From Rhizophagus irregularis (taxonomy: Eukaryota): a stretch of DNA of 64,000 nt. The translations under genes were made by a program, and so were the position numbers. The stretch is from positions 3,596,001 through 3,660,000 of the forward strand of contig NC_089433.1 of NCBI RefSeq assembly GCF_026210795.1. The letters are read 5' to 3'. The notes beneath the pieces are model-generated. The model was given only the letters and a program-made list of their open reading frames with translations. It searched no databases and was not told the origin of the DNA. Shown one piece after another: positions 2,382-61,918 of the stretch; positions within the stretch are counted from its first letter, which is position 1; each line of letters starts with the position of its first letter.

Positions 2382-2472
2382 TCATCATCTGCAGTTGGCG
2401 TATGCACTACCTACTATATATGTCATCTGAACGCCAAAAAAAAAAAAAAATTTTATTAAAAAAAAAAGAAAA

Positions 2473-3980
2473 ATGGTCACTCAATTTTTTTCGAAATTAA
2501 GTCAAAATTATATTGAATTATTAAAAGATGATGAATATTATGATATTACAATTGAAGTAGGTGAAGATCCCAACGTAAAAATATTTCGTGCTCATAAAAA
2601 TATTTTATGTTACCGTTCTTCATATTTACGACGAATATTAAAGTCTAACAAAAAGAACAATGATAACGTTTTAACCCATATTAAATTATCAAACACATCA
2701 CCGGAAATCTTTCAAATTATATTAGAGTAAGTTAAAAATTATGTTATACAATAACTTTGAATATTCAAATTATAACTTTTATTTTTATAATTAGGTATAT
2801 TTATGGAGGTATTCTTTCATCGGATGAAAAGGATACTTTAAACCTTCTTAAAGTTTTGGCTACTGCAGATAAGCTTAGTCTTCAAGAGCTAGTTGATTAT
2901 TTACAAGGATATTTAATTGAAAATAAGTCCGAACTGCTAGAACAATATTTTGAATTTGCTCAACAAATTAGCTCAAATTCTAATAATTTATTTAAACTCC
3001 AAGAATTTTGTACTAATTTAATGGTTCAGTCTCCCGAAAAAGTACTTAAATCATTAAATTTTACTTCACTTTCCGAAAAATCTTTAATTTCGATTATTAA
3101 AAATGATGATTTACAAATGAAAGAAATTGAAGTATGGGAACATGTATTAAAATGGGGACTTGCCCAAAATCCAACTCTCATTCTAGATCCTAAAACTTGG
3201 TCTGATGATGATTTTAAAACAATGAGTAATACTCTACAACATTGTTTACCCTTCGTTAGATTTTTTTGTTTATCATCAAAAGAATTTTCACAAAAAGTTC
3301 GTCCATATCAAAAACTCCTAAATCAACAACTTTATGAAGATTTATTAAACTTTTATTTAGAACCTGATAGTGTATCATCTCAAAACGTTCAAGTCCCTAG
3401 AAAAATAAAAATTAATGAAAAGATTGAAGAAGTTATTTGTTCACGAATCGTTAATTCTGGTATTGTTTCAACAATTTCAAGATGGATAGATAAAATAACT
3501 ATTGATGATAACAATTTTAATGAATCATATTTACCATATAAATTTGAATTATTGTTAAAAGGAAGCCGAGATGGATTTACCCCTAAAAAATTTCATGAAT
3601 TATGTGATAATAGACTTAAAACTGTTACGTTTATTAAAATAAAAGGAACAGAAGAAATTATTGGTGGATATAATCCTGTAATATGGGAATCTTCTGTTAT
3701 TTGGGGTGAAACCAAAGATAGTTTTATCTTTTCTTTTAAAAATAAGAATAACATTAAAGATGCAATTTTGAGTTATATAAAAATTTCTGGGCATGCAATA
3801 GCTAATCACCCTGAAGTTGGACCAAAGTTTGGCCATGATATCATTATAGGCGCTCAAAATGCATTTACAGATTATGATGTCGCTCAATGTAAGAAGCATT
3901 ATTATGAAAAAAAGATAAGAGATAGTGAAGGTGAATTTATTATAGAAGATTATGAAGTGTTTCAAATAATAAAGAAATAA
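2473..3980 (+). CDS. BTB/POZ-BACK-TLDc domain protein (intact; intron 2727-2794)
   Basis: Exon 1 has the BTB motif DITIEVGEDPNVKIFRAH. GT-AG intron restores frame. BACK motif EIEVWEHVLKWG; TLDc motifs LLLKGSRDGF and IIGGYNP; C-terminal DYEVFQI. Confidence 0.92.
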
Positions 3981-4126
3981 AATGTAGTATTTAAAGGATG
4001 AATTTTATTTGTGGCAAAATTAGAATAAATACTGTACAGTATTTATGGTACACATTGTATGTATCATTGTAACAAAGAAATCAATAAATTATTGCTATAT
4101 TTACGTAACTAACTCTCGTTATTAAA

Positions 4127-4527
4127 TAGAGATTCCGTTTGAAATTGGGTTATTCAAATGTTCATTTATAAATTAAGTAAATTAGGATATTCGAATTTTG
4201 AGATTCGAATCTGTTACGAAATTCGAAATATACTGAGATTCAAATGTTTCGATCGTAAAATACAATGCAAAATGCATTTTTTTAATTTTTTCATCCAATA
4301 AATAAAATTATAATAAAATCCATAATATGTAAAAGAAAAATAGTCTAAACACACACAATCACACATACTGTAATATTAAAATACTTTAAAACTATAAATT
4401 CGAATGTTCATTTGAGATTTGAATATCATGTGAGATTCGATAAACATTCACTGAGAATTTGAGATAGAATTTACATATTATATAATTTTCAGATATTCGA
4501 ATTTCGGACTTTAAAGTGGAAACTCTA
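4127..4527. mobile_element. Degenerate hAT-like MITE
   Basis: Termini TAGAGATTCC / GGAAACTCTA, many internal TTCGAA-type repeats, and imperfect 8-bp flanks ttattaaa/tcatgaaa. Confidence 0.5.
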
Positions 4528-4859
4528 TCATGAAAAATATATCTAAATTAAAATTTACATGTAAAGCGTAAGAGAATGAATTATATTCATCTAAACGAAA
4601 ATATCACAATTAATGTAATTTGTTATAATTAATATATTCCATTTTTTTGTCCTTTAATAAATTTCTGTAATAGTAGTACAAATGAAATAATTTTATCCTT
4701 TGTAATAAATTACAATTTATCTTAACTATAGAGAGGTAGACTGTTCCTATTTTGGAAGTAAAGACTGTCATCATCTGCAAGTTGGCGTACGTACTGCTTA
4801 ACCATATATGATATCTGAAACAAACTATAAATAATTTTTTTTTTAAAAAAAAAGAAAAA

Positions 4860-6366
4860 ATGGTTACTCGATTTTTTTCGAAATTAAGTCAAAATTATAT
4901 TGAATTATTAAAAGATGATGAATATTATGATATTACAATTGAAGTTGGTGAAGACCCTGACGTAAAAATATTTCGTGCTCATATGAATATTTTGTGTTAC
5001 CGTTCTCCGTATTTACGACGAATAATAAAGTCCAACAATAAGAACAATGATAACGCTTTAGCTCATATTAAATTATCAAACACATCACCGGAAATCTTTC
5101 AAATTGTATTAGAGTAAGTTAAATATTATGCTATGCATAACTTTTGAACATTCAAATTATAATTTTTATTTTTATAATTAGGTATATTTATGGAGGTATC
5201 CTTTCATTGGATGAAAAGGACACTTCAGACCTTCTTAAAGTTTTGGCTACTGCAGATAAGCTTAGTCTTCAAGAGCTAGTTGATTATTTACAAGGATATT
5301 TAATTGAAAATAAATTCGAACAGCTAGAACAATATTTTGAATTTTCTCAACAAATTAGCTCAAATTCTAATAATTTATTCAAACTTCAAGAATTTTGTAC
5401 AAATTTAATGGTTCAGTCTTCCGAAAAAGTACTTAAATCATTAAATTTTATTTCACTTCCTGAAAATCTTTAACTTTGATTATTAAAAATGATGATTTAC
5501 AAATGAAAGAAGTTGAAGTATGGGAACATGTATTAAAATGGGGACTTGCCCAAAATCCAACTCTCATTCTAGATCCTAAAACTTGGTCTGATGATGATTT
5601 TAAAACAATGAGTAATACTCTACAACATTGTTTACCTTTCGTTAGATTTTTTAGTTTATCACCAAAAGAATTTTCACAAAAAGTTCGTCCATATCAAAAA
5701 CTCCTAAATCAACAACTTTATGAAGATTTATTAAACTTTTATTTAGATCCTGATAGTGTAACATCTCATAACATTCAACTTCCTAGAAAAATTAAAATTA
5801 ATGAAAAGATTGAAGAAGTTATTTGTTCACTAATCATTAATTCTGGTATTGTTTCAACTATTTCAAGATGGATAGATAAAATAGTTATTAATGATGACAA
5901 TTTTAATGAATCATATTTACCATATAAATTTGAATTATTATTAAGAGGAAGTCGAGATGGATTTACTCCTAAAAAATTTCATGAATTATGTGATAATAAA
6001 CCTAATACTGTTACATTTATTAAAGTAAAAGGAACAGAAGAAATCATTGGTGGATATAATCCATTAGAATGGGAATCGTCTGTTATTTGGGGTGAAACAA
6101 AAGATAGTTTTATTTTTTCTTTTGAAAATAATAAGAATTTTAAAGATGCAATTTTGAACAAAGTAGTAAATTCTGATCGTGCATTATGGTTCAGCTATAC
6201 AACTGGTCCATATTTTGGTAACGATATTAATATAATTGCTTTAAATCATTATACAGATTATGTCACCATTAAGTATTGTAAAAGGTTTTATGAAAAAAAG
6301 ATAAGAGATAGTGAAGGTGAATTTGCTATAGAAGATTATGAAGTGTTTCAAATAATAAAGAAATAA
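4860..6366 (+). pseudogene. BTB-BACK-TLDc paralog with a 1-nt frameshift near 5463-5467 (pseudogene or homopolymer sequencing error)
   Basis: Close paralog of 2473-3980; GAAAAATCT becomes GAAAATCT, splitting the ORF. Confidence 0.75.
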
Positions 6367-6985
6367 ATGTTACAGTACTGTACGCGATAAAAGAAAAATT
6401 GAAGATATGTATCACGTAATACTACAGTAATAATTACATTAAAATACTATAATTAATTTTTTTTTAAACAAATTTAATTTAGCAAATGTCAGTAAACATA
6501 GTTTACTCATTTTCATTTTTGATGCTAAATACATTCGCAGTCAATAAATCTAAGCATTTGTCAAAATATACATATTATTTGTAACATCTGTACATATATC
6601 GTGTACAACATGTATCATCTTTTAAAACGCGTATCAATGTGTCAGACTGATAAAAGTTGAGTCATTTACTAAACAAAATTACTGAAATTAAAATGAATCT
6701 TTAATCTCTTAAGCTATATATGACTAATTTCTAATGATATGATTTTAAACAAAATTTTATCATACCATATTTGGCAAAATGATTAAGTTCTTGTTGGTCT
6801 TTGTCAATATGATAAAGAATAGATTTGATTATTATAAATGTAGTGTCAATTTTTTTTCACTTTGATGTTTCAATGTGTCAGTCTGAGTCATACTATCCAC
6901 AAAGATTTTTTTTATTTAAGACATTAAACTCTCATCACAATTTTTTTACCACAATTTTTTTAATTTTTAAAACCACAATTTTAAT

Positions 6986-9095
6986 ATGAGCACATCTGAA
7001 AACTACATTGGTCAAAATGGTAAATCTTGTAAATTGTATTTTAATTATAATATTAATAATTATTCAAATCTTTCAATCTTACTATTTTCAATCTTTCTAG
7101 CCATTATCTCTTATTTTAAAAATAGTAATAGTAATAAGACAACAAAGTCATATTTAGGGTTCTTGAAAAATCACCATGATATTATTATTACTTCAATTGC
7201 TACTACTACAACTCTTTTAGACAATTGGAACAAACTTGATAATTATTGGGCTGTCCATTTTTTGAGAGAAGGAAAGAGAGAAGGAAATGATTTTCTTGAT
7301 TTAAAAAATAAGGTGTGTTTTTTTTTTATTTTGCATAAGTTAGGGTAACCCCTAAGCAACTACGCTTACCTTAGGGAATTTACTGGGTTCGACAACCTTG
7401 GTAACCACTCCAAGTTTCTCAATTCAGGTGTCCTAACTTCTGTTGTTGATATAAGTCTGCTAATTCTGGAGGAGGAATTGGCTATGTACCTTCTTCTATC
7501 CTAAATAAAATTTAAACACACTACTAACAATGTCTTTCTTATAACAGGTGACTGCAGAACGATTACGTTATGCAAAAACATTAAAAATATTCTGGCAAAA
7601 AATTATTAAGAAATATGAAAAAAATTCAATATCTGCTCATTCTGCTGAAAAAGAAAATTTAGTACCTGCTAATTCTTCACATTCACAAAATATCATTGAG
7701 AATTCTGATAAAAATCATTTTATTCCTATTGAAAATCAATCCATTTTTAATTCATCTCATTCTTCTAATTCGTCTCATTCAAAAGAAAACATTGAAATTC
7801 CTATTAAGGATCATTCTATTTCTACTACTAAAGATCATTTCATTTTTACTAAAGATCATTCTATTTCTACTGAAAATCATTCTAAAAATTCTCAACTTAT
7901 CAATTTCTGTTATGATATTCTTCAGGAACTTGATATTAAATCTAATATTCATCCATTTTATGAATATAATGAAGAGAAAATTTCGAATAAATTTATAAAA
8001 AATCCTATGGATTTATTTACAATAATTTCAAAATTAAAAAATAATCAATATGCAAGTATTGAAGAATTTGAGAATGATATTCGTCTTATATTTCGTAATT
8101 GTTATATATATAATGATATAGGAAGTGAAATGCATATTTTAGGAGAAGAATTAGAATCAACTTTTAATAAGATCTGGACTGAAAAAATTGGTATTCAAGT
8201 TAAACAAAAAGAGAACTTAAAAAGAACACGAGATAATGATACTGATTTATCTTTTGGTAATTATAATAATAATATTTTTTTATTTTTATTATTCATTTAT
8301 TCATTAATTTTTTTGTAATTATTTATTTATTTACTAGAACTTGTAACAAAACAAATTAAAATTTTAGAACAAAACAGAGATAAGTTAGTATATGGACAAG
8401 TTGTGAATGATGCTCTTCTTATTATTTCAGCATATGAAAATCTTGTTGCTGATAATATTATACCTTTTATTGAACTTTTAAAAACATTCTTATTAACGAG
8501 ATCACAGATATCATTATCTTCTGCTGATGAATCTGTTCTTCAAGCAATTGTTGAAAACCTTTTACCATTAAAATATTGTATTCCTGAATTATCACTAGTA
8601 ATGGATGGTACAAAATTAAAAGGATTTGGTCGATTTGGATATTCAGATATTTTTATCTTAAAAGGAATAGGAAATAATAATATTAGTTTGGAATTAAAGT
8701 ATATTTCATTAATTGGATTAATTAAAAATCAAAAAAAAAAGTTTAATACAAATGATTTAGAAAATTTAGATAAAATTATCGAAAAAGAAGATGAAACAAT
8801 TCTACTAAAAAGATCATATGAATATTGGTCAAAAGAATATAATGAAACTAAAAAAATAACTATAGAAGAAGTATTAAATAATGGAATTAATCAATTAAAA
8901 TCATATATGAATATTATTTCAAAAGGAAAACCAATTGATTATTATAGTTCAGGAATATTTGATAAAAGAATTAAAATAACTAAATCAAATCCTAATAAAT
9001 TAAGAGGATTTGTTGTATTAGTAATTGGTTTTCGACGTATTTTATGGAGATCTGTAGAAGAAATAACATCTAATTATTCATATGAAAAAATTTAA
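6986..9095 (+). CDS. Four-exon protein: N-terminal helical domain + bromodomain + C-terminal PD-(D/E)xK-like nuclease (exons 6986-7019, 7101-7312, 7548-8256, 8338-9095)
   Basis: All three introns are GT-AG and the frame is continuous after splicing. Bromodomain signature KNPMDLFTIISKLKNNQYASIEEFENDIRLIFRNCYIYN. Nuclease-like motifs PEL...GYSDIFIL...SLELKY...QLKSY. Confidence 0.8.
7313..7547 (+). ncRNA. Structured intron RNA, copy A (intron 2 of the bromodomain-nuclease gene)
   Basis: GTGTG...TACTAAC...AACAG intron; several helices show compensatory changes relative to the copies at 61.5-62.6 kb. Confidence 0.75.
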
Positions 9096-10455
9096 AATAT
9101 ATTTTTTTTTTAATATATTATAATTTAGATTTATATAATATAAAATTAATAAATTTAATTATTAATAATTAAATTAATTTCCATTAATATTCATATTTTA
9201 TAATTTAAATTATATAAAATATAAATTTTTTAAATAATTAAATTTACATATTGTTATAAATAAATTATATAAATAAGAGTAATATAATTTTAAAAGATAA
9301 AGAATTAGCAAAGAAATCATATGATTTAATACTATTTTAATTGGTTAATATTTATATTGCATAAATTGACATAACTTAGACTAAGTATGAATTTTTGATG
9401 CATCATATAATGTGATGATAAACAAAAAGTTCTTTCCCCAAAAAAGAACCAGGAAAAGGATAATAAGTATAATACTGTGGAAAAATCCTTGGAAATATCA
9501 CATGTAATCGATCATATGCTTAATATATTAGCTAGTACACCTATTGATATACGATATCATTCTCAGCATTATGAAATGTGATAAAGCTATAATAAATGAT
9601 CCTTTTTGTCAAATCTATGTTGAAATTGGAACGAATATACTAATATTTCGAAGAGACTAAAAAAAGTATAAGTGATAAATTACTATGATAATCTCAAATC
9701 TTATTATTATACAAAATATTTAATCGTATTGATATTAAAAGTAAAATAAGTAAAATGTAAAATGTGAAAATATACAATTATATGGTTTACTTAGAGACCC
9801 ATAAAATCTCCAGAAGATCCTCATGCAAAAAGAACTATTTGATGTAAAATTCCTAGCAGATCCCAATGTAAAAGAATTACCTAATGTAAGATCTCTGGAT
9901 ATATTAGAACTACTTGATGTAAGACCACCTGATGTATTGGAACTACTGACGCAAAACCTCCAGAAGATCTCAGGCGTATAAGAGAAATACCGTAAGTATT
10001 TCCATCGTAGAACTTCTGCAAGTACTTTCTTGACGCAATACTTTCATAGAATCCTTCAGACTTGGGATTTCTGTAGTATCCACTTACATAGGATCTATTA
10101 AAGAACCTCGATCATTTCCACCGAAACTTCCTAATCTGAACCGGTATATCAGTGGTATATCCACCATATCCACCGCCGAAACTTTTAATGACTGTTGACT
10201 TCTATAAAAAAAGTCTTAATTATTGGAAATTTCAAAATTATTTATTTTTATTAAGAGTATCTTATATATTTGAAAATTTTGCAAATGATAACTTTTTTCG
10301 CATTACAAAATATTGTAAGTATTCATTAAAATACATTTTGCGATTAAAAATAAATTATATATTACCTGTTATCCTCTCTTTATATTGTAATACATTAAAT
10401 AAGAATCAGTACATCTGAATCGGGATAAACGAGAAATAATAGTCGGTACTGTCTA

Positions 10456-11873: not shown

Positions 11874-13134
11874 CTAAACGGTAAATGCAGCTCTTAATCG
11901 AGATAAATATAGCACACATATGATAGAGAAAACTGATTTTACCATTGTCAAGACAAAATGTTATTCCTCAGGAAGTTATGTGCAATGACGCAATGTAGTT
12001 AATCACCAGACAGTTATGCGACCGAATAATTACCCTTATAGTATAGTGTTTTATCTGTAAAATAGTTCTTTTCAAGTAACAGTAACATTTTTTTTCAGTA
12101 ATGCACATGTTTCACTGTTACGGTGTCTTACGTTAGCGGACGAAATTAAAAAATATGATATAGCAAAACTTATCGCGAAGTCAAGATCTAAGAGATGACT
12201 CGATCAGAATTTTAGAAAATAATTTTAATGACCGTACCTTCCTCAAGTTAACAAGTAGGATAAAAAATATGAAACCAATTGTAGAAACATACACTGGGAG
12301 TAAATTTCTACAATCTTGCACATGGCATTAAATCTTCTTGAGGGTTTGATGATCACATCACAATTGATGAAGAAAATATTTGTCATGTCGACTATGCGAT
12401 AAAAAGAAGGCTTAAATAATTCGTTCGAAGAAATAATTTCAAACAGATTCAGACAACAATGGAGATATGTGATTTAATATTTTCATTCGTTAGTTTATTT
12501 ACGCTTACAGTTGATTATGAGCACGAAATATCTTTATATAAGGATCCGCCTTTTTGACTTTTTCTAACTCATGGCGCATATCCAAATTATCAGTAAATAC
12601 ATTACCCGATGAATTAAAAGTGATAATGAGTGTTTGATAAAAATATATTTTGGTTACTAGCTTATTGTAGATTCGATCATTAGTGATCAAACAGACCGCA
12701 GCAAAATTTCACTTTGACGCGTCTTACAATCTTACATGTACTAATAATTTAAGTGAATTTATGTGTCCATTAATTGATATCCGGATAAGATTGGTAAATT
12801 ACGTTGTCTCAGTATACACTTATGTTTATGGTGAATAATAAAAATTAAGTGATACATGATAGTCCAGTCAACAGTCGTTTCACCAACAGTTTTAAAAAAT
12901 AATATTGTATTTAGCTGAGATAAATTATCCATTAACATTAATTTGTACTTATTATATTTTTAAAAAAGGAAGATATTCAATTATAAGAATAAGACTTTCC
13001 TTTTATATGTACTATACATTATCTCATATTATATATAATAATATGGATATGTTTCACGGATTTATTTTTGTATTTTATTTCGATACAAAATTAATAAAAT
13101 TGAAAACTGATCTAAGTTAAAAAAAGATTTGTCA

Positions 13135-14260
13135 AAAGAAATTTGAAGATATGTATCACTAGTAACAATTACATTAAATATAAATTTTTTTTTAAAAAAA
13201 AAAAATTCCATAGCCAATAAGCATAATTTATGGTTAAATTCTACGGCAGATCCATTTCTATCAAACGCGATGCATTTGTCAAAACATACATATTATTTAT
13301 AACATATCATGCATAATATGTTTCAATGTGTTTTATCATATTGAAATCACCTTTAATCTCTTAAGCTATATATGTCTAATTTCTAATTTCTAATGATATA
13401 ATTTTAATCAATATTATACCATACCTATTGACAAAATGATTAAGTTCAGTCAATATGATAAAGAATAGATTGGATTATTATAAAAGTAGTGTTAATTTTT
13501 TTTCATTTTGATATCTCAATGTGTCAGTTTGAGTCATACTATCCACAAATAATTTTTTTTATTTAAGACATTAAACTCTCATCAATTTCTCATCAATATT
13601 TTTTTTATAATATCAATTTTTAAACACAATAATCAATTTTTTTTGCCAATTTCAATATGAGCATATCTGAAAACCACATTGGTCAAAATGACTGTATTTA
13701 ATTTGTAACTTATTATAATATTAATAATTAATCAAATCTTTTAATTATCTCTTAAAATCATATCTAAAAGTCACTGTGATATTATTATTACTTCGAAAGA
13801 AATGATTTTCCTGATTAAAAAGATAAGGTGTGTTTTTTTTTATTTTGCATAAGTTAGGGTAACCCCTAAGCAAATCCGTTTACCTTAGGGAATTTACTGG
13901 GTTCGACAACCTTGGTAACCACTCCAAGTTTCTCAATTCAGGTGTCCTAACTTCTGTCGTTGATATAAGTCTGCTAATTCTGGAGGAGGAATTGGCTATG
14001 TACCTTCTTCTATCCTAAATAAAATTTAAACACACTACTAACAATGTCTTTTATATAACAGGTGACTGTAGAATGATTACATTATGCAAAAATATTGAAA
14101 TGTGAAGTAACTTCAGTATCTGCCGAAAAAGAAAATTTAGTACCTGCTAATTCTTCCCATTCACAAAATATCATTTTATCAATTTGAACTTGATATTAAG
14201 TTTAATATTTATCCATTTTATGAATATGATGAAGAAGAAATTTCAAATAAAATTATTAAG
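13135..14260 (+). pseudogene. Decayed duplicate of the upstream region and 5' part of the bromodomain-nuclease gene
   Basis: Matches about 6390-8000 (ATGAGCATATCTGAAAAC..., GAAAAAGAAAATTTAGTACCTGCT). Has large exonic deletions, loss of the first donor site, and stops. Confidence 0.85.
13828..14061 (+). ncRNA. Structured intron RNA, copy B
   Basis: Nearly identical to 7313-7547; the few substitutions fall mainly in a hairpin loop and outside the main helices. Confidence 0.75.
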
Positions 14261-17200
14261 AAAATCCAGGAAATTAGGCCGTATTAGTCTAGATCTAGAT
14301 TAACCTTTTATTTGTAATAATATACGTTAACTAATACAATAAACGAAAAGAAGAAAATTTATACAGACTTTATCCAAATTTTTTGTAAAACTCTAAGAGT
14401 ACTCCAAGAGTCTAAACATGATTAATTGCATAAGTAACAATTCAGTCGATACTTATTTCTTTATTTAGAAAATGCTACTATGATAGAGATTGAATAAGAA
14501 GCTTCTCATACTGCTTTATGATTGTTCGTAATCAGTTAAATCTCCTGAAATTTCAAATGATTTATGTGACCGAAATCCTTAACCGGGTGAGAACACTAAT
14601 CAAAAAGAAATTATAATAGAATATATCATATTTTTAAAATTATTAAGTATGACACACATTTAATTAAAATGTATTTTATTATCTAAAATCTTTTTCATGA
14701 TGCCGACTACTGATTGGTTTTAACAGAATCATATAATTAAAGCAAAAAGCCAACATCGTTGTTGAAATAGTTTTAACTTGTAAAATCAGCTTTTTTTATA
14801 TATTAACGAACATTACTAACTGTTGTTTTTTCTCTTTGTCTTCTCTTCTCTTTTCTTTTCCTTAGGTCTTCTTTTTTTTCGATTAAGTAATCTTAAACAT
14901 GGTTGACGATAAGTAACTCATAAGATGAAACTAATAAATCAAGAATATCTTCACCCGATAGGTCTTCTCTTTTCTTTAGGTCTTTTTTTCTTTAGTCTTC
15001 TTTTGCTTTTCGATTATGGTTGAATAATTGTAACTCATCAGCGAGTATATCTTCACCCGATAGATCTTTTACATCTTTTTTTAGGTATGTAGGTTGAGAG
15101 TGTGGATTATGTATGGGTGGTGGTGTCCTCACTCTTCTCTTATTTCCCCTCTTTCCCTTTCCCTTATTCCTTGCTCTTTCCTCTTCCCCTCTCTCCTTTC
15201 CCCCCCTGATCACACCTCAACGTTGGTGTCAGGTGACAAGAAGATTTTTAAAAGACTTGGCTAAGTCAGCAAAAAATATTAACGCTTTGCACTTTTATTA
15301 AATATATATATAACTATAAATTAAAAATAAAACTTTTATTTAATTTCTCATCTATAATTAATTAATTAGTAGATCTAAAATTTATCAAGATTTCCTTAAA
15401 TGAGACAAATGCATATTGTAACTAAAAAATTCCATACCTCGACTATATATACATATATATATACCTCAAATATTCGATGAAAAGGTTGCTTAAGGAAACG
15501 TGTTTATTTGTTTATTTTTTATACATATATATATATACCTGATTGCTGAAGGAAGCGTGTTTACTTTTTTCTTACGATGGGAAAGGTAAAGGACAAGAAA
15601 AGAAAGGGAGAAAGGACGTGGACGAGATAGAGAGAAAGGGCGAAGAGAAAGTGCGTACAAAAGTTAAAATTTTAACTTTAATTAAACATGATAGGTCATT
15701 TTATACTTTATTATAGCTTTTAACAATTGTTAACAACTAGCAAAACTAAAAAATAATAAATAGTTATTGGATGGAAGAGTAGCTATGTCGGTATATAGCC
15801 CCACATCCAATAATGGTGTTATTGTTCTGACGTTTTTGATCAAAATAACATCATAAATAAACTTTATTTAACTTTCTATAAATTTCATTTTTATGCTATT
15901 TTTAATCCACTTTATTAGCTTTATTTAAACTTTTCCTACAAAATATTCGTTCATTTACACCATATTTTTTACTCCATTTTATTATATCAATAATATATAT
16001 CAGTCTATGAAAATCTTGCATGATCCTATTGGCTGAACGATAATAAATGTTAAAAAAACAACTTTACCATTTTGGTCTCAGTTAAGTCGGTATCACTAAT
16101 AATAATTAAATGAAAAAACTTATAATGTATCAATGAAATCATAATAATAATTATATATACTGTATATGTATTTAATAGATCTAAATTTTTTTTATATAAT
16201 TTTCCTCATAATTAATTTCCGACGCTATACATACATATATTCTTAAATGACAAATTTAATATAATTTGCAAATATTACAATTAGTGTAATTTTTTATAAT
16301 TAATATATTCAATCGGAAGTCCGTGTTTTCATTTTTTTTTGTCCCTTAATAAATTTATCCGAATTTTCCGTAATAGTACAAATGAAATAAATTTATCCTT
16401 CGTTGTTATCAATAAGTTAGTTATTGTACGAATGTACCAATCAAGACATACTAAATAGCCATCAATCACATGAATTAATTATATCCAATCAAATGTGCCA
16501 CACGTGACTAATTAACGTGATCGAGTTTAGCAAGAAAAAAAATAACATTTAATTGATTTTGATCTCTTTAACGTTGCTGTTTCCGTAGGCCATTAAAATT
16601 TTCAATTTAAAATTCGTACACTTAAGATTTGAATGAAGCTATCATCCTATGTCACATGGACCTTATAAAGCAGCAGATTCACTGTAAAAATTTTTTACAT
16701 TTATATGATAACATTCCTAGATCACGAATTGTAAAGAAACTATTCTTAGAAGAAAGATACAAAAATAATAAAATCAGCCTAATTATTGCTATTTTCAAAA
16801 AGGCGTTACCAGTTGTATATGAGAATCAGAAGTTAATCATCAAGCTTTTATATAAAGATAAGAAAAATTTTTTTTTTTGCCCGTTAAATTTGATATAGCA
16901 GTTTTATTTTTCCCTGTAGAATTCGTACTTAATTTTATAATGTAATTCAAACAATTCCTTGTCAATATGATTCATTCTAAAAGGAATAAGGATGTTTTTT
17001 AGGGTCGGAATTACAATATTGTCAGCCAGTATCTAAAGAGACAATAAAACTCTGGCTGGTATTATCCTAAAGGGAAAGAACTAAATCTTAATACCTATTA
17101 ATAAATGGTGATGGGGATTATCGAAGACCCATACGGTAATACTGCGGTGACCAATAGGAATTAATATTACTAATACTGATTTCAATATTGGATGTCTCAT

Positions 17201-23557: not shown

Positions 23558-24139
23558 TAGGGATGGCAACGGTCACGGTCATTAACTGGTTATGACCGGT
23601 CATGACCATGACCGATATCGGTCGGTCAAAGACCTCTGACCGACCGTTTGACCGACCGTTTAACCGATCCTGAAAATGTTTGCGAAACGCAAATTTCAAA
23701 ATATACGGGACACTTGAGAAATTTGATTGTCAGGTTGTCGGGTAGCCGGGTTACTCGGCAGTAGGTTATTATATAATCTGATATACTAGTATTCATTATA
23801 CTCGTCACGTGTTATTTATACTTTTCTAATAAACAACCTACTGCCGAGTAACCCGGCTACCCGACAACCCGACAATCAAATTTCTCAAGTGTCCCGTATA
23901 TTTTGAAATTTGCTGTAATAAAAAATGTTTCGCAAACGTTTTTTTAATTATTTTAATAGAAAACGTTGCGAAAATGTTTTTATTAAGTATTTCAAACGTT
24001 TTTTTATTAAATTACGTTTCGCAAATGTTTTCAGGATCGGTTAATAAACGGCCGGTCAAACGGTCGGTTGGTCAGTCAAAGGTTCTTGACCGGTTATGAC
24101 TGACCGATGACCGACCATGACCAACCGTTGCCATCCCTA
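23558..24139. mobile_element. hAT-family fold-back MITE
   Basis: TIR TAGGGATGGCAACGGT / ACCGTTGCCATCCCTA, perfect 8-bp TSD CTCAAAAA (23550-23557, 24140-24147), and GACCG/CGGTC subterminal repeats. Confidence 0.92.
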
Positions 24140-25708: not shown

Positions 25709-28359
25709 TGACATGTCGTATTCGTCGTAATTGTCATAATCTTTATAGATGATAGTCTGGTCTAACCAGCGATTTTTTTTTTTATTATTTAATAGAATAA
25801 ATGAATAAATATATTTCGAAAAAGAGAATTGCTCGGAACATAAACGTGAAAATAATAAAATGAATTTTCAATTTTATTTTTTTTTGAAAAAATAAAGTAT
25901 TTCAAACTAATATTCTTACTAGTAACATATTCTTACTATTAACTTGTTAGTGCCAGTTCTTTTCAAATATCGCTGAAAGATATTCTTGAATATATTTCAA
26001 ATATGATTCTTTGGAATGTAAACTCTTTGTATAATTTAGGAGCATATTTTTTACGAAGGGATTAGATAAGAGAACAAGAGACTTTAAAAAATATCTTGTT
26101 AACTATAGATAGTTATACCAATTTGGGGAATCTATAACGTAACATTATAATTGCTACGTATTTTATAATAATATACTACCAGCTACGGTTGCTAAATTCT
26201 ATAATATGGACGCGAAAGATATATAAAAAAAAAAAAATTAATTTTTAATTATGGAATTTTGAGTATAATCTATTCAAATCAATCGAACCTTCTATGTTTC
26301 TGGTACTATTAAAACGACCTGTCTTGATAATTATACGCTTTTATATATAATTTCTTAATGTCAGTTCTTTGTCAACTTTCATAATATGTATCAGTAACGT
26401 TAGAAATTTTCACATTATTACGCAAAGAAATCATAACTGGTGAAGATTTATTCAATTATTGTTATTGTAAAATGATTGAAACAATCGAGTTCTAATAATG
26501 GATGAAATAAATTTTACCAATTTATGCCCATTTTAACATTAACATCATATCGAAATTAAATAGGATATAACCTCTCTTTTTTTGGATAATTTTAACTGGC
26601 ATTATACGACTAATTGTAAATTTCTTTGGCTGTTCTATCTGTCATTTCCTTATATATTGTAACTGAACTCCAATTAAATTAATCTTATGCGCGTTTGTGA
26701 ATATAAACGACACTTAATTACTTAAAGTCCTATGAGTAACAATTATCACGAATTCACGACAAACAATTTATGTTTATTATTACTATTGTTATTTAGTCTG
26801 AGCAATCTAACCTAGACGCAATTGTTACTATATTATCCACATATGAGTCTAAGTCATAAATACTTTGTATGTTAGACTATTCTCGTTACACTAGATCACT
26901 GAGGTCATAATTTTCTTTTAATAAAACAACATATTGGATGAGCGACTGACGCGTAACATTAAATTATCTTTTATCATTCGTCATATAAGTTATCGATTCT
27001 CGAATAATTCTTTTGGCGAACTAAATAACATTTACACAGGTTAATAAGACAAATTCCTCGAAAAGTTCAATCATTTTTATGTAATTATAACCCTTTTTAG
27101 AGCAGTACTAAAAGATAATTATCTTTGTGAAATCTCTTATATATATAAATATATTTGAAATACCGTAATACTATAAATATTATACAGTACATTATTGAAC
27201 TAATCCTCGCCCATTTTTGAATCAAAAATTAATAAAGCTTATTTTGATTGATTGATTTGACTATAGAGAAAAACTTCCCAATATTGATAATAATTTTAAT
27301 TACTTTAAACAATAAATGATAAAAAATATTTCGCATAGTTATGTTGAATAATTGATACATAGATATTTTTATTATTAATCGATAATACTGTAAATATAAT
27401 TTTCAGTATTTATTAGTTATATCGCCTATATCGCCAATATAATGTTCATAAAAAAATCATATTAAACTCGAAACTAATTAACTAATTTTGATTTTTTTAA
27501 TTTGTATTAAGATAAGCTTGTACGTGTTTGAAAAGTTTATTCGTAGTTTTTTTTTGTTTAAAAAAGTTAATAAAAGCCAAACTGACCCACAGCAAATATA
27601 ATGAAAAATATCTTTGTTTGTAATCAGGAATACTCAGCGTTTAATTTCTGTTAATATTTTTATTAACGAAATAATATTGAATAACTGATTAATATTAACT
27701 GAAATTCTTAATTTGGTTAAATATGAAAATGGTTCGAAATAAATATTTTTGACTTAGTGAAAGTTTTAATTATAAATTCAAATATATTAAATTTTTATTT
27801 TTTTATAAAGTACGTCCAATAATTAACAAACCTTATAGTGGTTCAGATGTTAGTGTTAGTATACGTGGCCGCTTAGAAACGAACCATTCCTAATTTCGTG
27901 CTTATTCTCTCTGACCAATCGCCTTAGCTCATAATTTTAAACGCCATTAGTATATAATTTCTTATGTTCTTATGGTAAATGCTGCTGTAGAATAAATTGT
28001 ACCTTTTTAATGTAATTCATGATACCCAGTTCGGTTCAGCTTTTTACTTTTCTACCCATCTTTCCGTTTATTTGCCGCCTTCAAAATGGTTAAATTGTTG
28101 AGTAATATGATGGAGGGAAAAAAATGTGTACATTCCAGTACACCATAAAAGTTCAATCATTTCATGGCTCACAAATTTTGTCGGTTAGTATGACCCGAAC
28201 CTTTATAAAACCATTAGGTCATTAGTCGATCTATGATTTTGGCGTAGATGTACAACCATCAATATTTAATTTAACTATTTTTGAAATGATTTAAATATTA
28301 CAAAATGGCCAGTATTTAATTTTGATCGTCTTTTTTTTTTTATTTTAAAATTATAAATT

Positions 28360-29885
28360 ATGTCCGCCGAATTTTTCTCAAAATTAAGTCAAAATTATAT
28401 TGAATTATTAAAAGATGATGAATATTATGATATTACAATTGAAGTTGGTGAAGATCCTAATGTAAAAATATTTCGTGCTCATATGAATATTTTATGTTAT
28501 CGTTCTCCATATTTACGACGAGTTTTGGCTTCTAACAAAAAAGAAGATAACATTTTATCTCACATTAGATTACCAAATATATCACCGGAAATTTTTCAAA
28601 TTATTTTAGAGTAAGTTCTAATTTTATATTATCCATACAATAACCTTGAAGAATCAAATTATTAACTTTAAATTTTTCGTAATACAGATATATATATGGT
28701 GGTATTATTTCTTTAAGTGGACAGGATACTTCAGACATTCTAGATGTTTTGTTGGCTGCAAATGAGCTTTGTTTTCAGGAACTAGTTGATTATTTACAAA
28801 AATATTTAATTGAAAATAAATCTGAGTGGATGAAAGAAAATTTCGAATTTACTCAACGAATCAGTTCACAATCTAATAATTTAGTGGACCTTCAACATTT
28901 TTGTACAGATTTTGTTGCTAAATTTCCTGAAAGAATACTTAAGTCGCTTTATTTTACTTCACTTTCCGAGAAATTGTTGATTTCACTCATTAAGAGGGAT
29001 AATTTACAAATGAAAGAAGTTGAAATTTGGGAACATGTATTAAAATGGGGTCTTGCACAAAATCCTACTCTCGTTTCAGATCCTAATGATTGGTCAGATA
29101 ATGATTTTAAAACAATGGAGAATACTTTGCAATATTGCCTACCATTTGTTAGACTTTTTAGTTTATCATCCAAAGAATTTTCAGATAAAGTTAGACCATA
29201 TCAAAAGCTTTTTAAACGTCAATCTTATGAAGATCTATTAAATTCTTATTTGGATCCTTATTATGAACCAAGTGACAGTATCTCACTTCCTAGAAATATT
29301 GAAATAGATGGAATTATTGATTCAAAAATTGTTAATTTAAATATTGTTTCAATTATTTCAAGATGGATTGATAAAGTAGATGTTAATTGTAAATTTTCTC
29401 ATTTAAGAGAATTATATTTACCATACGAATTTCAATTATTGATAAGAGGAAGCCGAGATGGATTTACTCCTAGAAAGTTTCATACTTTATGTGATAATAA
29501 GCATAATACAGTTACATTTATTAAAGTAAAGGATTCAGAAGAAATTCTTGGTGGATACAATCCAATAACATGGATGAATGTTAATTCTTGGGGTGAAGCT
29601 CAAAATTGTTTTATTTTTTCTTTTAAAAATAGAAGTAATTTTAAAGATGCAATTTTGAGTATTGTAAAATATACAGACAACGCGTTGAATTATCATCCTG
29701 ATCATGGCCCATTCTTTGGCAATGACCTTATAATATATACATCTGAAGAATCTAAAGATTCAGCTGATATAGATTTTGATACGACAAAAGTTTGTAATGA
29801 AACATCTTGTTACGAAAAAAGTATAAGGGAAGGAGGGGAATTTCTAATGGAAGATTATGAAATCTTTCAAATTATAAAAAGATAA
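28360..29885 (+). CDS. BTB/POZ-BACK-TLDc protein (intact; intron 28611-28687)
   Basis: Same motifs as gene 1; frame is continuous after splicing. Confidence 0.92.
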
Positions 29886-30238
29886 ATAGTATTTTTTTTA
29901 TTTTGTTTCTTCGTATCTATACAATATGTAATTTTTATTAACTTTTCCTGGAATAAGCAGTAAAAATGAAACGTGGTATATTGTAAATAAAATTATATAC
30001 CTTATTTATTTTTCGTTTTTTTTTTCATTCTCGGTATAATTTATATTTACTATTCAACTGAAATTATTCAAATTTATCATTTGAACATTAGCTACAGTAT
30101 ATGTAAGTGCTTATGGCGACTATGCGTTAGTTAAATGCACATCAATATTTTAATTTAGCCATTTTTGAAATAATTATATTACAAATGGAGTAATTTATCG
30201 CCAATATTTTTGATCGATTTTTTTTTTACTTTTAAATT

Positions 30239-31756
30239 ATGTCTGCCGAATTTTTTTCGAAATTAATTCAAAATTATGTTGAATTATTGGAAGATGATGA
30301 ATATTATGATATTACAATTGAAGTTGGCGAGGATCCTAATGTAAAAATATTTCGTGCTCATATGAATATTTTATGTTATCGTTTTTCATATTTTCGGCGG
30401 GTTATAGCTTCTAATAAAAAGGACAACGTTTTAGCTCATATTAAATTTATAAAAATATCACCGGAAATCTTTCAAATGATTTTGAGGTATTTTATAATTT
30501 TTATATAAAATACATTTAAAACATTTTTTTTAAAATATTTATATTTTATTAACTGGATTTGTGATATAGGTATATTTATGGTGGTATTCTTTCGTTAAAT
30601 GAACAAGAAAATTCAGATTTTCTTAAAGTATTGGCTGCTGCGGATGAACTTCGTCTCCAAGAACTAGTTGATTATTTACAAAAATATTTAATTGAAAATA
30701 AGTCCGAATGGATGGAAGAAAATTTTGAATTTACTCAACGAATCAGCTTACAATCTAATAATCTGGTGGAGCTTCAACAATTTTGTGTAGATTTTATTGC
30801 TAAATCACCTGAAAAAAATATTTAAACCACTTTATTTCACTTCGATTTCTGAAAATTTTTTAATTTCACTTATTAAGAGAGATGATTTACAAATGAAAGA
30901 AATTGAAATATGGGAGCATGTATTAAAATGGGGACTTGCACAAAATCCCACTCTCGTTACAGATCCTAATGTTTGGTCAGATGATGATTTTAAAACAATG
31001 GAAAATACCTTGCAACATTGTCTACCTTACGTTAGACTTTTTTGTCTATCATCAAAAGAATTCTCACAAAAAGTTAGTCCATATAAAAAACTCTTAAATA
31101 AACAACTATATGAGGATTTATTAAATTCTTACTTGGATTCTGGTCGTGAACCGATTGAAGACATTTCATTGCCTAGAAACATTGGAAATATTGAAATTAT
31201 TGATTCAAAAATTGTTAATTTAAATATTGTTTCAATTATTTCAAGATGGATTGATAAAGTTGATGTTAATTATAACTTTTCTCATTTAAGAGAGTTATAT
31301 TTACCATATAAATTTCAATTATTGATAAGAGGAAGCCGAGATGGATTTACTCCTAAAAAGTTTCATACTTCATGTGATAATAAACATAATACTGTTACTT
31401 TTATAAAAGTAAAGGATTCAGAAGAAATTCTTGGTGGATATAACCCTCTAAAATGGGAATCTTCTGATACTTGGGGTAAAACTAATGTTAGTTTTATTTT
31501 TTCTTTTAAAAATAAGAATAATTTTAAAGATGCAATATTGAGTATTATAAAAGATACAAACAACGCGTTGAATTATCATTCCATATTTGGTCCATGTTTT
31601 GGCAAAGATCTTTTAATGTATACATATATAGGTGCAGCTGATATAGATTTTGATATGACGGAAGTTTGTAGTGAATATTACGAAAAAAGAATAAGAGAGG
31701 AAGGCGAATTTCTGATGGAAGATTATGAAATCTTTCAAATTATTAAAAATAAATAG
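30239..31756 (+). pseudogene. BTB-BACK-TLDc paralog with a +1 frameshift in an A-run near 30812-30818
   Basis: GAAAAAAATA versus GAAAAAATA in paralogs; could be a sequencing error. Confidence 0.75.
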
Positions 31757-32068
31757 TATTTTTTTTTTTCTTATTTTGTTTTCTTCGTATCTATGCAATA
31801 TGTAATTTCTTTTGGAATAGTCAGTAAAATGTAACATGACATATTGTGAAATAAAATTATAAACCTTATTTTTCATACAGATTATTACATAATAATTTTA
31901 TATTCAAAATATTCAAATTTTATCATTATTTATAAATGTGAACCAGCTACATATCATGACATCAATATTTAATTTAACCATCTTTGAAATAATTATATAT
32001 TAGTTTAACGACCGATATTTAATTTGATCGTCTTTTCATGGTATCTTGTTTTTTAAAAATTATGAATT

Positions 32069-33583
32069 ATGTCTGCCGAATTTTTTTCAAAATTAAGTCA
32101 AAATTATATTGAATTATTGAAAGATGATAAATATTATGATATTACAATTGAAGTTGGTGAAGATCTTAATGTAAAAATCTTTCGTGCTCATATGAATATT
32201 TTGTGTTATCGTTCTCCATATTTACGACGAGTTTTGGCTTCTAACAAAAAAGAAGATAACATTTTATCTCACATTAGATTACCAAATATATCATCGGAAA
32301 TTTTTCAAATTATTTTAGAGTAAGTTCTAATTTTATATTATCCATACGATAACTTTGAAGATCAAATTATTAACTTTAAATTTTTTGTAATTCAGATATA
32401 TATATGGTGGTATTATTTCTTTAAATGAACAGAATACTTCAGACATCCTAAATGCTTTGTTGGCTGCAGATGAGCTTTGTCTTCAGGAACTAGTTGATTA
32501 TTTACAAATATATTTAATTGAAAATAAATCCGAGTGGATGAAAGAAAATTTTGAATTTACTCAACGAATCAGCTCACAATCTAATAATTTAGTAGAGCTT
32601 CAAAAATTTTGTGCAGATTTTGTTGCTAAGTCTCCTGAAAGGATATTTAAGTCGCCTCATTTTACTTCACTTTCTGAAGAATTTTTGGTTTCACTCATTA
32701 AGAGGGATGATATACAAATGAAAGAAGTTGAAATTTGGGAACATGTATTAAAATGGGGTCTTGCACAAAATCCTTCTTTCGTTGCAGATCCTAATGTTTG
32801 GTTAGATAATGATTTTAAAATAATGGAGAACACTCTGCAACATTGCCTACCGTTTGTTAGACTTTTTAGTTTATCATCCAAAGAATTTTCAGATAAAGTT
32901 AGACCATATCAAAAGCTTTTTAAACGTCAATCTTATGAAGATCTATTAAGTTCTTATTTGGATCCTTATTATGAACCAGGTGACAGTATCTCACTCCCTA
33001 GAAATATTGAAATAGATGGAATTATTGATTCAAAAATTGTTAATTTAAATATCGTTTCAATTATTTCAAGATGGATTGATAAAGTAGATGCTAATTGTAA
33101 CTTTTCTTATTTAAGAGAATTATATTTACCATACAAATTTCAATTATTGATAAGAGGAAGTCGGGATGGATTTACTCCTAGAAACTTTCATACTTTATGT
33201 GATAATAAACATAATACAGTTACATTTATTAAATTAAAGGATTCAGAAGAAATTCTTGGTGGATACAATCCAATAATATGGATGAAATTTGATTCATGGG
33301 GTAAAACTCAAAATAGTTTTATTTTTTCTTTTAAAAATAAAATAATTTAAAGGATGCAATTTTGAGTATTGTGAAAGATACAAATGGCGCGTTGAATTAT
33401 CATAACGAACATGGTCCATGCTTTGGCAAAGACCTTTTAATATATACATATGAAGATTCTGCTGATATAGATTTTGATCTTACAGAAGTTTTTACTGATG
33501 AATATTACGAAAAAAGTATAAGAGAAGAAGGCGAATTTCTGATGGAAGATTACGAAATCTTTCAAATTATAAAAAATAAATAG
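32069..33583 (+). pseudogene. BTB-BACK-TLDc paralog with a frameshift near 33340
   Basis: ORF stops at 33350 and the TLDc tail continues in another frame (33362-33583). Confidence 0.78.
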
Positions 33584-33913
33584 TATTTTTTTTTCTTATT
33601 TTGTTTTTTCGTATCTATGTAATATGTAATTTTTATTAACTTTTCCTGGAATAAGCAATAAAAATGAAACGTGGCATATTGTAAAATAAAATTATAAACC
33701 ATATTTATTTTTTTTTTTTTCATTCTTATATTTACTATTCAAATTATTCAAATTTATCATTTGAACATTAGCAAGTACTTATGACGATTATGACGTATAA
33801 ATGCACATCAATATTTAATTTAGCTATTTTTGAAATAATTATATTACAAATGGAGCAATTTATCGCCAATATTTTGATCGATTTTTTTTTTACTTTTAAA
33901 ATAATTATAAATT

Positions 33914-35419: not shown

Positions 35420-35766
35420 TATTTTTTTTTTCTTTCTTATTTGTTTCTTCGTATCTATGCAATATGTAATTTTTTTTAATAAACACTTTCCTGAAATAGT
35501 CAATAAAATGAAACATGACATATTATGAAATAAAATTATAAACCTTTTTCACTTTTTCATTTTTCAATACCATATCATTGCTTATATTTAATATTCAAAT
35601 TATTCAAATTTATCATTATTTATAAATGAGAACCAGCTACAGTCAAGTTATGACGTAGTAAATGCACATCAATATTTAATTTAACCATTTTTGAAATAAT
35701 TATATATTAGTTCAACACCCAATATTTAATTTGATCGTCTTTTTCTTATTTTTAAAATTATAAAAT

Positions 35767-37490: not shown

Positions 37491-38156
37491 TTGGTATATT
37501 TATTTTGCAATAGCAAATTTGTAAAATAATAACCAGGATGATATTATATATGCTTACTTAGTCAATGAACCAAACATTAGTCATTATTAATAAATTTTTT
37601 ATGATTTTATTAATGATGAATATTGTAAAAATTCTCGTGAATATTCCCAATAAAATGTGTTATAACAGAGGAAGATTTTACTGTTTCAGCATAAATCCAA
37701 ATCAGTTATTATTTGAGAATTTTTTATGATTAGGCCATTCCAACTAGATTGTTTGTTTAATGTACCCTTATATTTTTTTAAATTTTGATAATGTATAACA
37801 TGTACATGCATGTTTAAAATATCCATTTAAATTATAAATTTTCTGAAGTTTCCAAAATTTATTTCATTTAGTTTGTTTAATGAAAACCCCCTCCCCCTCA
37901 AACTTTCAGAAATCTGGACGTTGAACAAACAGAACAGTCCTATTAATAAAAATTTACGGGTGTTTCAACACGTATCACGTGACCATATAAAAAAAAAATT
38001 AATACAGAATATTAATTTAGGTGACTTGTAAAGTTGTTGTAATACATCCGTGACTTCAGGTAATTCTTTGTTATTATATTCACCGTTACATAAATATAAA
38101 TTACATAAATATAATAATGAGAATTCGGTTTGAGTTTTTCATTTGCGCAGTCGTCG

Positions 38157-38698: not shown

Positions 38699-39198
38699 AG
38701 TCGTCGTGTTGGAATTTTCCTATGAAATAAGGAGCGTTAATGACTGTCAAACGTAGCCGCAAATATATTGTATTTAATTTTATTTTTAATATATAGACAA
38801 AACCGGAACCTTAGCTATCTACTGTAAGCAGTACGAATTACAAAAACGAAACACGCTAAAATAAAACTAAGTTGTTTAACCCCAAGGAACTGGATAGGAG
38901 CCGCTCTGCCAAATTATTCTAGGAACCCTAGGCGTAGCCGGATTAACCACCAAAACCAGACTGATATTGTATTTAAGACGTTTATTGTTTAGCGAAAGTA
39001 AATCAATTTTATCACGTGACAATTTTTGTTCCACGCTGCTTATAGACTTGTGCTAATTTGCTAATTTGCATAAATACACATCAATATTTAATTTAACTAT
39101 TTTTGAAGTAATTATATATCACAAAATGGCAAAATGGCTAGTATTTAATTTTGATCGCCTTTTCCTCATTTTTTTTTTTATTTTTAAAATTATAAATT

Positions 39199-61516: not shown

Positions 61517-61918
61517 CTATTATGAAAAAGAAAAATTATTAATAGTGTGCTAAATTTTTATTTAATCATAAAGAAGACATAGCCAATTCCTCCTTTAGAA
61601 TTAGCAGACTTTACTAATAACAAAGTAGGATGTTATCTGCTTGAGTTGGTTATCAAGTGAACAAGAGAAATAAAAAAAAAATAAAAAAAAGAAAAAAAAA
61701 GAAAAAAAGGGAATAAAAAATATAAAAATAAAAATAAAATAAAAAAGAAAAAGCAGGTAATTTCATAGGAATTACCCACTTTGCTCACCCTTACCCAACC
61801 CAAACAAATAAATCCAGTACCCTCCTAAGTAAAATTTGTGAACTCCCCGACTCATTGAGTTATCCGTTCTAATTTTGACTTAGGAAGTTACCCACTTTGC
61901 AAATAAAAAAATACACAC
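61517..61918 (-). ncRNA. Structured intron RNA, copy C (long form)
   Basis: GTGTG...ATAG on the minus strand. Shares the helices and a 33/35-nt block with copy A; the flanking exons are decayed. Confidence 0.72.

What the first reader, a model, noticed from the sequence alone, without database searches (positions are those of the whole stretch)
13657..14260. Intron outlives its gene: copy B is nearly intact inside a wrecked duplicate
Seen: exon 2 of the duplicate lost over 100 nt, the first donor is gone and exon 3 has deletions and stops. Intron 13828-14061 nevertheless differs from A by only a handful of changes, mostly in the helix-2 loop (CAACTACGCTTAC vs CAAATCCGTTTAC). Inference: selection acts on the intron RNA independently of the protein, as for snoRNA host genes, or the intron was homogenised by gene conversion.
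Basis: partly seen in the sequence, partly recalled or inferred. Interest (0 to 1): 0.75.

Follow-up and report, generated by a model that had tools for sequence, protein, structure and literature searches.

The report
Folded intron outlives its dead gene
In a mycorrhizal fungus, a 234-base intron predicted to fold into a multi-stem RNA stays almost unchanged inside a gene copy whose protein-coding parts are wrecked, likely because the intron RNA itself has a job, and related introns turn up in three orders of these fungi.

Summary
The window is Rhizophagus irregularis-like DNA. Gene A (6986-9095: unnamed N-terminal domain, bromodomain, PD-(D/E)XK-like tail) has a dead duplicate B with two stops and eight gaps of 9-199 nt. 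B's 234-nt intron differs from A's by 6 substitutions and 1 indel (2.6%) against 63/649 (9.7%) in the flanks (p=2e-4). Changes by class: predicted stems 0/126, shared motifs 0/27, free positions 6/82, the flank rate. That is the signature of selection on an RNA fold, not of overwriting from A. A second wrecked pair, C/D (61.5-62.6 kb), repeats the pattern; 0 of 16 changes break a helix (P=0.0025). The intron belongs to a multi-copy family (order of 100 copies, rough) seen also in Gigaspora, Acaulospora, Dentiscutata and Entrophospora gene models. It has no Rfam match and lacks snoRNA boxes. Best reading (0.55): a released, likely stable intron RNA that acts in trans, with B as non-coding host. 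Main rival (0.3): a cis-acting splicing element refreshed by conversion from an intact paralogue. Expression of B is not shown.

The parts
13828..14061 (+). Structured intron, copy B (234 nt): GTGTGT donor, TACTAAC branch site (branch A 14041), ACAG acceptor, all intact
   Evidence: folding z=-2.7 on this strand, -1.0 on the other
13828..14035 (+). Predicted helix P1: 13828-13835 pairs with 14028-14035 and 13838-13845 with 14017-14024, clamping the donor to the bases just before the branch site
   Evidence: pair probability 0.90-0.99 in all four copies
13851..13953 (+). Predicted P2 domain: P2 (13851-13859/13945-13953), P3 (13864-13870/13884-13890, variable loop 13871-13883), P4 (13897-13903/13935-13941 and 13911-13915/13924-13928)
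   Evidence: same topology with longer P3 and P4 arms in copies C and D
13963..14015 (+). Predicted P5 arm; upper stem 13973-13981/13988-13996. Most conserved stretch of the family
   Evidence: 33 of 35 nt identical between A and C
13657..14267 (+). Dead duplicate gene B: ATG kept, intron 1 splice sites lost, two in-register stops, eight gaps of 9 nt or more, 3' two-thirds of the gene missing
13134..13656 (+). Upstream DNA of B, homologous to A's; the near part (13345-13656) is 91% identical at aligned sites, so a promoter is likely kept
   Evidence: promoter function inferred
6986..9095 (+). Intact gene A, exons 6986-7019, 7101-7312, 7548-8256, 8338-9095; 570 aa: unnamed N-terminal domain, bromodomain, PD-(D/E)XK-like C-terminal domain
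   Evidence: matches the annotated protein P0001; Pfam PF00439 E=6e-17; nuclease fold is a lead from predicted models, TM 0.62 to a PDDEXK_9 cluster
7313..7547 (+). Structured intron, copy A (235 nt), removed in the annotated protein P0001
62197..62586 (-). Structured intron, copy C (390 nt), in a host with no open frame; a transposase remnant lies directly upstream
   Evidence: folding z=-7.2
61517..61918 (-). Structured intron, copy D (402 nt), tandem duplicate of C; 10 substitutions in 390 nt against 22 in 152 in the flanks
   Evidence: folding z=-6.3

Best explanation
B is a dead duplicate whose intron is almost unchanged, likely because B now serves as a non-coding host for a folded intron RNA that is predicted to be spliced out, to persist as a stable lariat and to act in trans. 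Shown: intact splice signals, conserved upstream DNA, and changes confined to unpaired, non-motif positions in two separate wrecked pairs. Inferred: transcription and splicing of B; resistance to debranching, because helix P1 joins the first intron base to the bases five nt before the branch A; and a protein-binding scaffold role. The partner I think most likely is the family's own protein, with the RNA damping its nuclease-like domain, so an extra intron copy beside A is useful while its exons are not. That last step is a guess, about one in three within this explanation.
For: A/B substitutions: stems 0/126, shared motifs 0/27, free 6/82 against flanks 63/649 (stems vs flank p=2e-5, free vs flank p=0.69). 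B has been dead long enough to matter: 11 B-derived replacement changes in 101 codons (4.8% per site; A-derived 1.3%), including two stops; at that rate 5.4 changes are expected in 112 paired sites, 0 seen, P=0.004. Second pair C/D: 10/390 vs 22/152, p=9e-7; its stem changes keep pairing (U-G to C-G, U-A to U-G). With helices taken from A and C only, 0 of 16 substitutions break a pair, joint P=0.0025. The sense strand folds better than the antisense strand. The fold is shared by A and C despite a 155-nt length difference. Translated traces of the intron occur in gene models from three orders. B-specific junctions sit at single-copy depth in a DNA run (11.9 and 17.9 against 14-23), so B is not an amplified mobile copy. 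Weak: contigs of two runs guessed to be RNA hold the P5 stretch with C-identical continuation (X19) and B-type loop letters (X20).
Against: No raw RNA reads were available, so expression, splicing and lariat stability are untested. With about 100 or more family members, selection on one extra copy needs copy-specific function, which is not shown. For A/B alone the helix-avoidance test is not significant (P=0.11); giving all 6 intron changes to B, the whole-intron deficit is P=0.07; the absence of large gaps alone is P=0.09. In C/D even free positions are low (7/151 vs 22/152, p=0.006), as homogenisation would give. One contig of run X20 joins B-type loop letters to an undeleted exon 2, so an intact paralogue able to donate a B-like intron may exist (assembled contigs can be chimeric). 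The structure is a thermodynamic prediction on two independent sequence types; 2 of the 7 listed paralogue variants that fall in stems break a pair, both at helix edges. Homology of the C/D host exon to the N-terminal domain was not confirmed.
Confidence: 0.55

Rival explanations
1. The fold is a cis-acting splicing switch or zipper that matters only in intact genes. B's copy looks selected because it was recently overwritten by ectopic gene conversion from an intact paralogue other than A; the intron is the longest near-identical stretch left and so the best recombination substrate.
For: A donor that is itself constrained gives the same stem/loop pattern. X20 contig 28 (342 nt) carries B-type loop letters with an undeleted exon 2, and an exon letter of that type is also seen in runs that hold B. 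C/D free positions are below the flank rate. A cis role is plausible: P1 hides the donor, and an AG in the 3' strand of P3 is conserved in all four copies and is used as acceptor in some public gene models, giving a short protein (P0012, P0045, P0048).
Against: The tract would have to stop at both intron borders in two separate pairs: nearest flank mismatches are 6 nt before and 8 nt after intron B, and within 10 nt before C/D. C and D both lack an open host, yet their stem changes keep pairing (P=0.022). The gene models are predictions.
Confidence: 0.3
2. The intron is a selfish RNA that rewrites its own copies: a stable lariat reverse-splices or templates repair at matching sites, which keeps intron-bounded tracts fresh whatever the state of the host.
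For: The conserved tract matches the intron borders; the donor reads GUGYG as group II introns do (recalled); many copies; the C/D host could not be tied to A's family by profile, which leaves insertion into another gene open.
Against: All 5 proteins found with the intron-only query have family-type host sequence by eye, pointing to vertical descent at one exon junction. A and C types stay very different. No group I or II match in Rfam and no encoded reverse transcriptase.
Confidence: 0.1
3. B died recently by a burst of deletions and the intron was missed by chance; earlier divergence built up while both genes worked and the intron was constrained in cis.
For: Gaps alone are not significant (P=0.09); some B-derived changes could predate death in a fast-evolving family (10 further changes could not be polarised).
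Against: Eight separate large gaps, two stop codons and a replacement rate 3.7 times A's; the same outcome in C and D.
Confidence: 0.05

Closest known systems
Non-coding snoRNA host genes (GAS5, with 10 intron-encoded box C/D snoRNAs; PMC10743478, passages)
   Same: Intron RNA is the conserved product and the exons do not code.
   Different: No C/D or H/ACA boxes and no Rfam match; the host is a recently killed member of a large protein family; the whole intron from donor to branch site is one fold.
Circular intronic RNAs (ciRNAs) and stable lariats (PMC5814467, passages)
   Same: [quoted passage not shown]
   Different: Stability is only predicted here; this is a multi-copy family with a conserved multi-helix core in fungi.
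Structured fungal introns that regulate splicing: TPP riboswitches, RPL32/RPL30-type autoregulation, motifs of Li and Breaker 2017 (PMC5640933) and Gao et al. 2021 (PMC8216456), passages
   Same: Conserved fold inside a spliceosomal intron with splice sites buried in helices.
   Different: Those are mostly single-copy and act in cis, so they should decay in a pseudogene. Gao et al. screened Ascomycota only; neither main text names Rhizophagus.
Introner-like elements (recalled)
   Same: Multi-copy, long, stably folding spliceosomal introns.
   Different: Those are young, near-identical copies in unrelated genes; this family is old, diverged, and tied mainly to one exon junction.
Crinkler/CR proteins with header plus restriction-endonuclease-like domain (PMC5289972, passages)
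   Same: A shared N-terminal domain joined to varied C-termini, some nuclease-like.
   Different: No Crinkler Pfam match; no structured intron is mentioned in the passages read.
Type III toxin-antitoxin RNAs and orphan antidote genes of fungal drive systems (recalled)
   Same: RNA or antidote kept while the toxic partner gene decays.
   Different: Purely an analogy; no binding or toxicity shown.

Membership tests
Box C/D snoRNA | C box (RUGAUGA) and D box (CUGA) near the ends | tested here: not met
   Neither box in intron A or B by reading; no Rfam match
Box H/ACA snoRNA | Two hairpins, ANANNA hinge, ACA tail 3 nt from the end | tested here: not met
   An ANANNA occurs before P5 in A/B but not in C/D; no ACA directly after P5; no Rfam match
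snoRNA (either class) | Antisense element to rRNA or snRNA | not tested
   No rRNA or snRNA of this organism was in hand
Non-coding intron-RNA host gene | Intron product conserved, exons non-coding | tested here: met
Non-coding intron-RNA host gene | Host transcribed and spliced, intron RNA accumulates | tested here: inconclusive
   Only assembled contigs of runs guessed to be RNA
U2-type spliceosomal intron | GT donor, CTRAY branch site, YAG acceptor, removal restores the frame | tested here: met
   Removal in A gives the annotated protein; signals intact in B; C/D have TTAAT at the branch position
Group II intron | Domain V with catalytic triad, domain VI bulged A, AY end | tested here: not met
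   No Rfam match; ends in YAG after a spliceosomal branch site; only the GUGYG-like start is shared
Small self-cleaving ribozymes and group I introns | Core motifs scored by Rfam models | tested here: not met
   Best E-values 2.5-9.5, to unrelated families
ciRNA / stable lariat | Debranching-resistant circle detected in cells | not testable with these tools
   Needs RNase R or branch-spanning reads
Introner-like element | Near-identical copies inserted in unrelated genes | tested here: inconclusive
   5 of 5 intron-query hits look family-hosted; C/D host unassigned; genome not available
tRNA or tRNA-derived SINE | Cloverleaf | tested here: not met
   ARAGORN 0 genes in the window
Crinkler/CR protein (host) | Recognised header domain plus REase | tested here: inconclusive
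   No Pfam Crinkler hit; PD-(D/E)XK-like fold is a lead; the defining paper was not held

The most novel reading that the evidence does not exclude
A phylum-wide family of lariat RNAs in arbuscular mycorrhizal fungi is cut from the very pre-mRNAs that encode PD-(D/E)XK nucleases and serves as their RNA antidote or guide scaffold. Dead paralogues are kept as orphan RNA donors: a eukaryotic toxin-antitoxin or RNA-directed nuclease system packed into one spliced gene, in a fungus whose nuclei share one cytoplasm.
Probability: 0.17. Interest if true: 0.92.

Novelty: new variant of a known kind. Interest (0 to 1): 0.72.

Why it matters
It points to an undescribed, old, multi-copy structured RNA in the main fungal symbionts of land plants. 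The test case is unusually clean: dead duplicates separate selection on RNA from selection on protein. If trans action holds, many apparent pseudogenes of these repeat-rich genomes are RNA genes, and a large nuclease-like family gains an RNA regulator. If conversion holds, the intron is a recombination hot spot right behind a shuffled N-terminal domain.

Tried and rejected
No whole genome is held, so copy number and tree tests were not possible. DNA pattern scans: viral contigs 0 (16 pattern matches, 0 confirmed), prokaryote genomes 0, metagenomes 13 loci, all 13 lacking the other intron features and judged chance. Sequencing runs: no RNA holder listed. Run X19 covers 7 of 30 bins and none of A's exons; a hole in contigs proves nothing. 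Copy B itself was not used as reference for reads. Rfam at gathering and E-value thresholds: nothing. Resemblances to HDV-like, twister and pistol ribozymes, telomerase template, tRNA T-arm and group II domain V were considered from memory and dropped because the needed pairings are absent or not shared by C/D. A conserved hidden reading frame was dropped: the copies have stops and frame-changing indels. CpG hypermutation of flanks does not explain the contrast (7 CpG-context transitions among 83 flank changes; the introns keep 2-3 CpG). Single-sequence AlphaFold model of the C-terminal domain was unusable (pLDDT 37). Profile tests did not link the C/D exon to the N-terminal domain; their weak hit in A's bromodomain exon probably comes from fragments in my alignment. 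A formal codon-level count of compensatory changes in the read-through proteins was not made, so that evidence is by eye only. The control on ordinary introns of BTB-TLDc paralogues was looked at but not counted; by eye those introns are no better conserved than their exons in two of three pairs and about equal in the third. Four look-ups of earlier findings returned nothing.

Full report
Setting. The window is AT-rich eukaryotic DNA. Homologues of gene A are all from Rhizophagus, and the spliced product of A matches the annotated 570-aa protein P0001. A has four exons. Its second intron (7313-7547) follows an unnamed N-terminal domain; then come a bromodomain (E=6e-17) and a C-terminal domain whose predicted model resembles PD-(D/E)XK nucleases (TM 0.62 to a PDDEXK_9 cluster; feature hits of 0.80-0.83 to Shedu/NucS clusters; a lead only).

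The observation. B (13134-14267) is a same-strand duplicate of A's 5' part, 6.7 kb downstream. The intron differs at 6 of 234 sites with one indel; flanks differ at 63 of 649 with 23 indels (p=1.9e-4 and 0.009). The ordinary intron 1 differs at 6 of 52 sites and lost its splice sites. B carries two in-register stops and eight gaps of 9-199 nt, 415 gap nt in 790 nt, none of the large ones inside the intron. Polarised with eight intact paralogues, 101 comparable codons give 11 B-derived, 3 A-derived, 6 synonymous and 10 unclear changes. So B has decayed at about 4.8% per replacement site.

A family, not a pair. Motif and profile searches of the window found exactly two more copies, C (62197-62586) and D (61517-61918), on the minus strand. 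They are tandem duplicates without an open host frame; a transposase remnant lies just upstream of C (HTH_Tnp_Tc3_2, E=5e-5, below the curated cut-off). Their introns differ at 10 of 390 sites, their flanks at 22 of 152 (p=9e-7). By eye the exon before C resembles A's N-terminal domain, but two profile tests did not confirm this. In a DNA run, summed contig depth over the P5 stretch was 4147 against 14-23 for single contigs, and 409 against about 3 in another. The tool warns that this is no copy number; I take it only as an order of 100 copies.

Range. Gene callers that read into the intron leave its translation in protein databases. An intron-only query returned 5 proteins among 20 candidates (one is the query, one has E=2.5). 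A profile returned 21 among 1919; of the 14 new ones, 11 show clear intron-derived peptide by eye, 2 a three-residue trace and 1 none. Named sources include Gigaspora rosea, Dentiscutata erythropus, Acaulospora morrowiae and Entrophospora sp. SA101, besides R. irregularis: orders Diversisporales, Entrophosporales and Glomerales (the placement of Dentiscutata is recalled). By eye, P0013 shows an A-U to G-C change in P5 (isoleucine to valine with leucine to proline), and P0054 a U-A to C-G change in P1. A formal count was not made.

The fold. All four copies fold better than shuffles (z -2.7 for B, -3.0 for A, -7.2 for C, -6.3 for D); B's opposite strand gives -1.0. The shared plan: P1 pairs the donor with the bases just before the branch site; inside lie a P2/P3/P4 junction whose P3 and P4 arms vary in length, and the P5 arm, of which 33 of 35 nt are identical between A and C. 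With helices read from A and C alone, none of the 16 substitutions in B and D breaks a pair (P=0.11 and 0.022, joint 0.0025). By class, A/B has 0/126 in stems, 0/27 in motifs shared with C, 6/82 free; C/D has 3/209, 0/30, 7/151 (the lower P5 stem was added after viewing the sequences). Of the 18 paralogue or isolate variants listed inside the intron (80 further rows were not shown), 13 are unpaired, 3 keep a pair and 2 break one.

Selection or conversion. Free positions of A/B diverge at the flank rate, so B was not simply overwritten from A. Stems should have taken about 5 hits since B died and took none (P=0.004). B's own junctions are at single-copy depth, so success as a mobile copy does not explain it. 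What remains open is conversion from an intact third paralogue. One contig of run X20 links B-type loop letters to an undeleted exon 2; it may be such a paralogue, an undeleted allele of B, or an assembly chimera. The low free-site divergence of C/D also fits some homogenisation. Against conversion: the conserved tract ends at the intron borders in both pairs, and C and D, both dead, changed their stems only in pair-keeping ways.

Mechanism. Shown: intact splice signals, kept upstream DNA, structure-respecting change. Inferred: B is transcribed and spliced; P1 closes the lariat at its branch and slows debranching, as motifs at these two places do for ciRNAs (PMC5814467, passages); the RNA binds a protein through the invariant P5 arm and junctions while P3 and P4 vary. 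Since it is released from nuclease-like genes, I favour the family's own protein as partner, but this is a guess. A cis role in intact genes can coexist: P1 hides the donor, and a conserved AG in P3 is the acceptor in three public gene models that end early. Expression evidence is weak: contigs only, from runs guessed to be RNA.

Known systems. Rfam gives no match, ARAGORN none. Ten literature searches (listings and abstract openings) showed no description of this family. I read passages, not whole texts, of PMC10234402, PMC5289972, PMC8216456, PMC5640933, PMC12957317, PMC5814467, PMC10639083, PMC9757828 and PMC10743478. Supplements were not opened; the species and motif tables of PMC5640933 and the small-RNA tables behind PMC9757828 could bear on novelty. 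Subscription journals are largely outside the library. It works like a snoRNA host arrangement but is not a snoRNA.

Verdict. Real, repeated within the window, part of an old and apparently undescribed structured-intron family. Trans-acting RNA 0.55, cis element plus conversion 0.30, selfish RNA 0.10, chance 0.05. Interest 0.72.

Noticed in passing
window 7374 (A), 13888 (B), nt 94 of C and D: A conserved AG in the 3' strand of P3, 26 nt after a TAAC in A and B, could be an alternative acceptor giving a 62-nt intron and an early stop; three public gene models use it.
   Followed up: partly
window 6658-6664, 6884-6890, 13530-13536: TGAGTCA, an AP-1/Gcn4-type site (recalled), twice upstream of A; the near one is kept in B within one of the best-conserved upstream blocks.
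   Followed up: no
window 61517-62586, minus strand: C and D lie 278 nt apart in the same direction, so one non-coding transcript could release both introns, as in multi-snoRNA hosts.
   Followed up: no
window about 62435-62455 and 61770-61790, minus strand: The P4 extension of C/D holds a second copy of the 5' P2/junction segment and a long U-rich loop; the hairpin A forms as P4b is present in C/D but predicted to pair differently.
   Followed up: no
window 62675-63480, minus strand: Broken Tc1/mariner-type transposase directly upstream of copy C.
   Followed up: partly
window 2382-6367, 28235-40724, 56756-57712: About ten BTB-BACK-TLDc paralogues in tandem arrays, several with frameshifts or truncations.
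   Followed up: partly
window 13209-13218: A 10-nt exact complement of the 3' arm of P5 lies upstream of B but not of A; found after the fact and probably chance.
   Followed up: no
window 7020-7100: Intron 1 of A is 81 nt, in frame and stop-free, so retention would add 27 residues; metagenome ORFs of relatives also read through it.
   Followed up: no
window 59399-60184: 261-aa open frame with a weak QRICH1-domain match (E=0.001), resembling a Crypton-type recombinase remnant (recalled).
   Followed up: no
window 9090-9329, 23689-23913, 44746-47262: AT-rich inverted repeats (MITE-like) and a 1-kb direct repeat at 76% identity.
   Followed up: no
protein P0036: The same N-terminal domain is joined to an unrelated, nuclease-like C-terminus (by eye), so the intron sits close to a domain-shuffling point.
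   Followed up: partly
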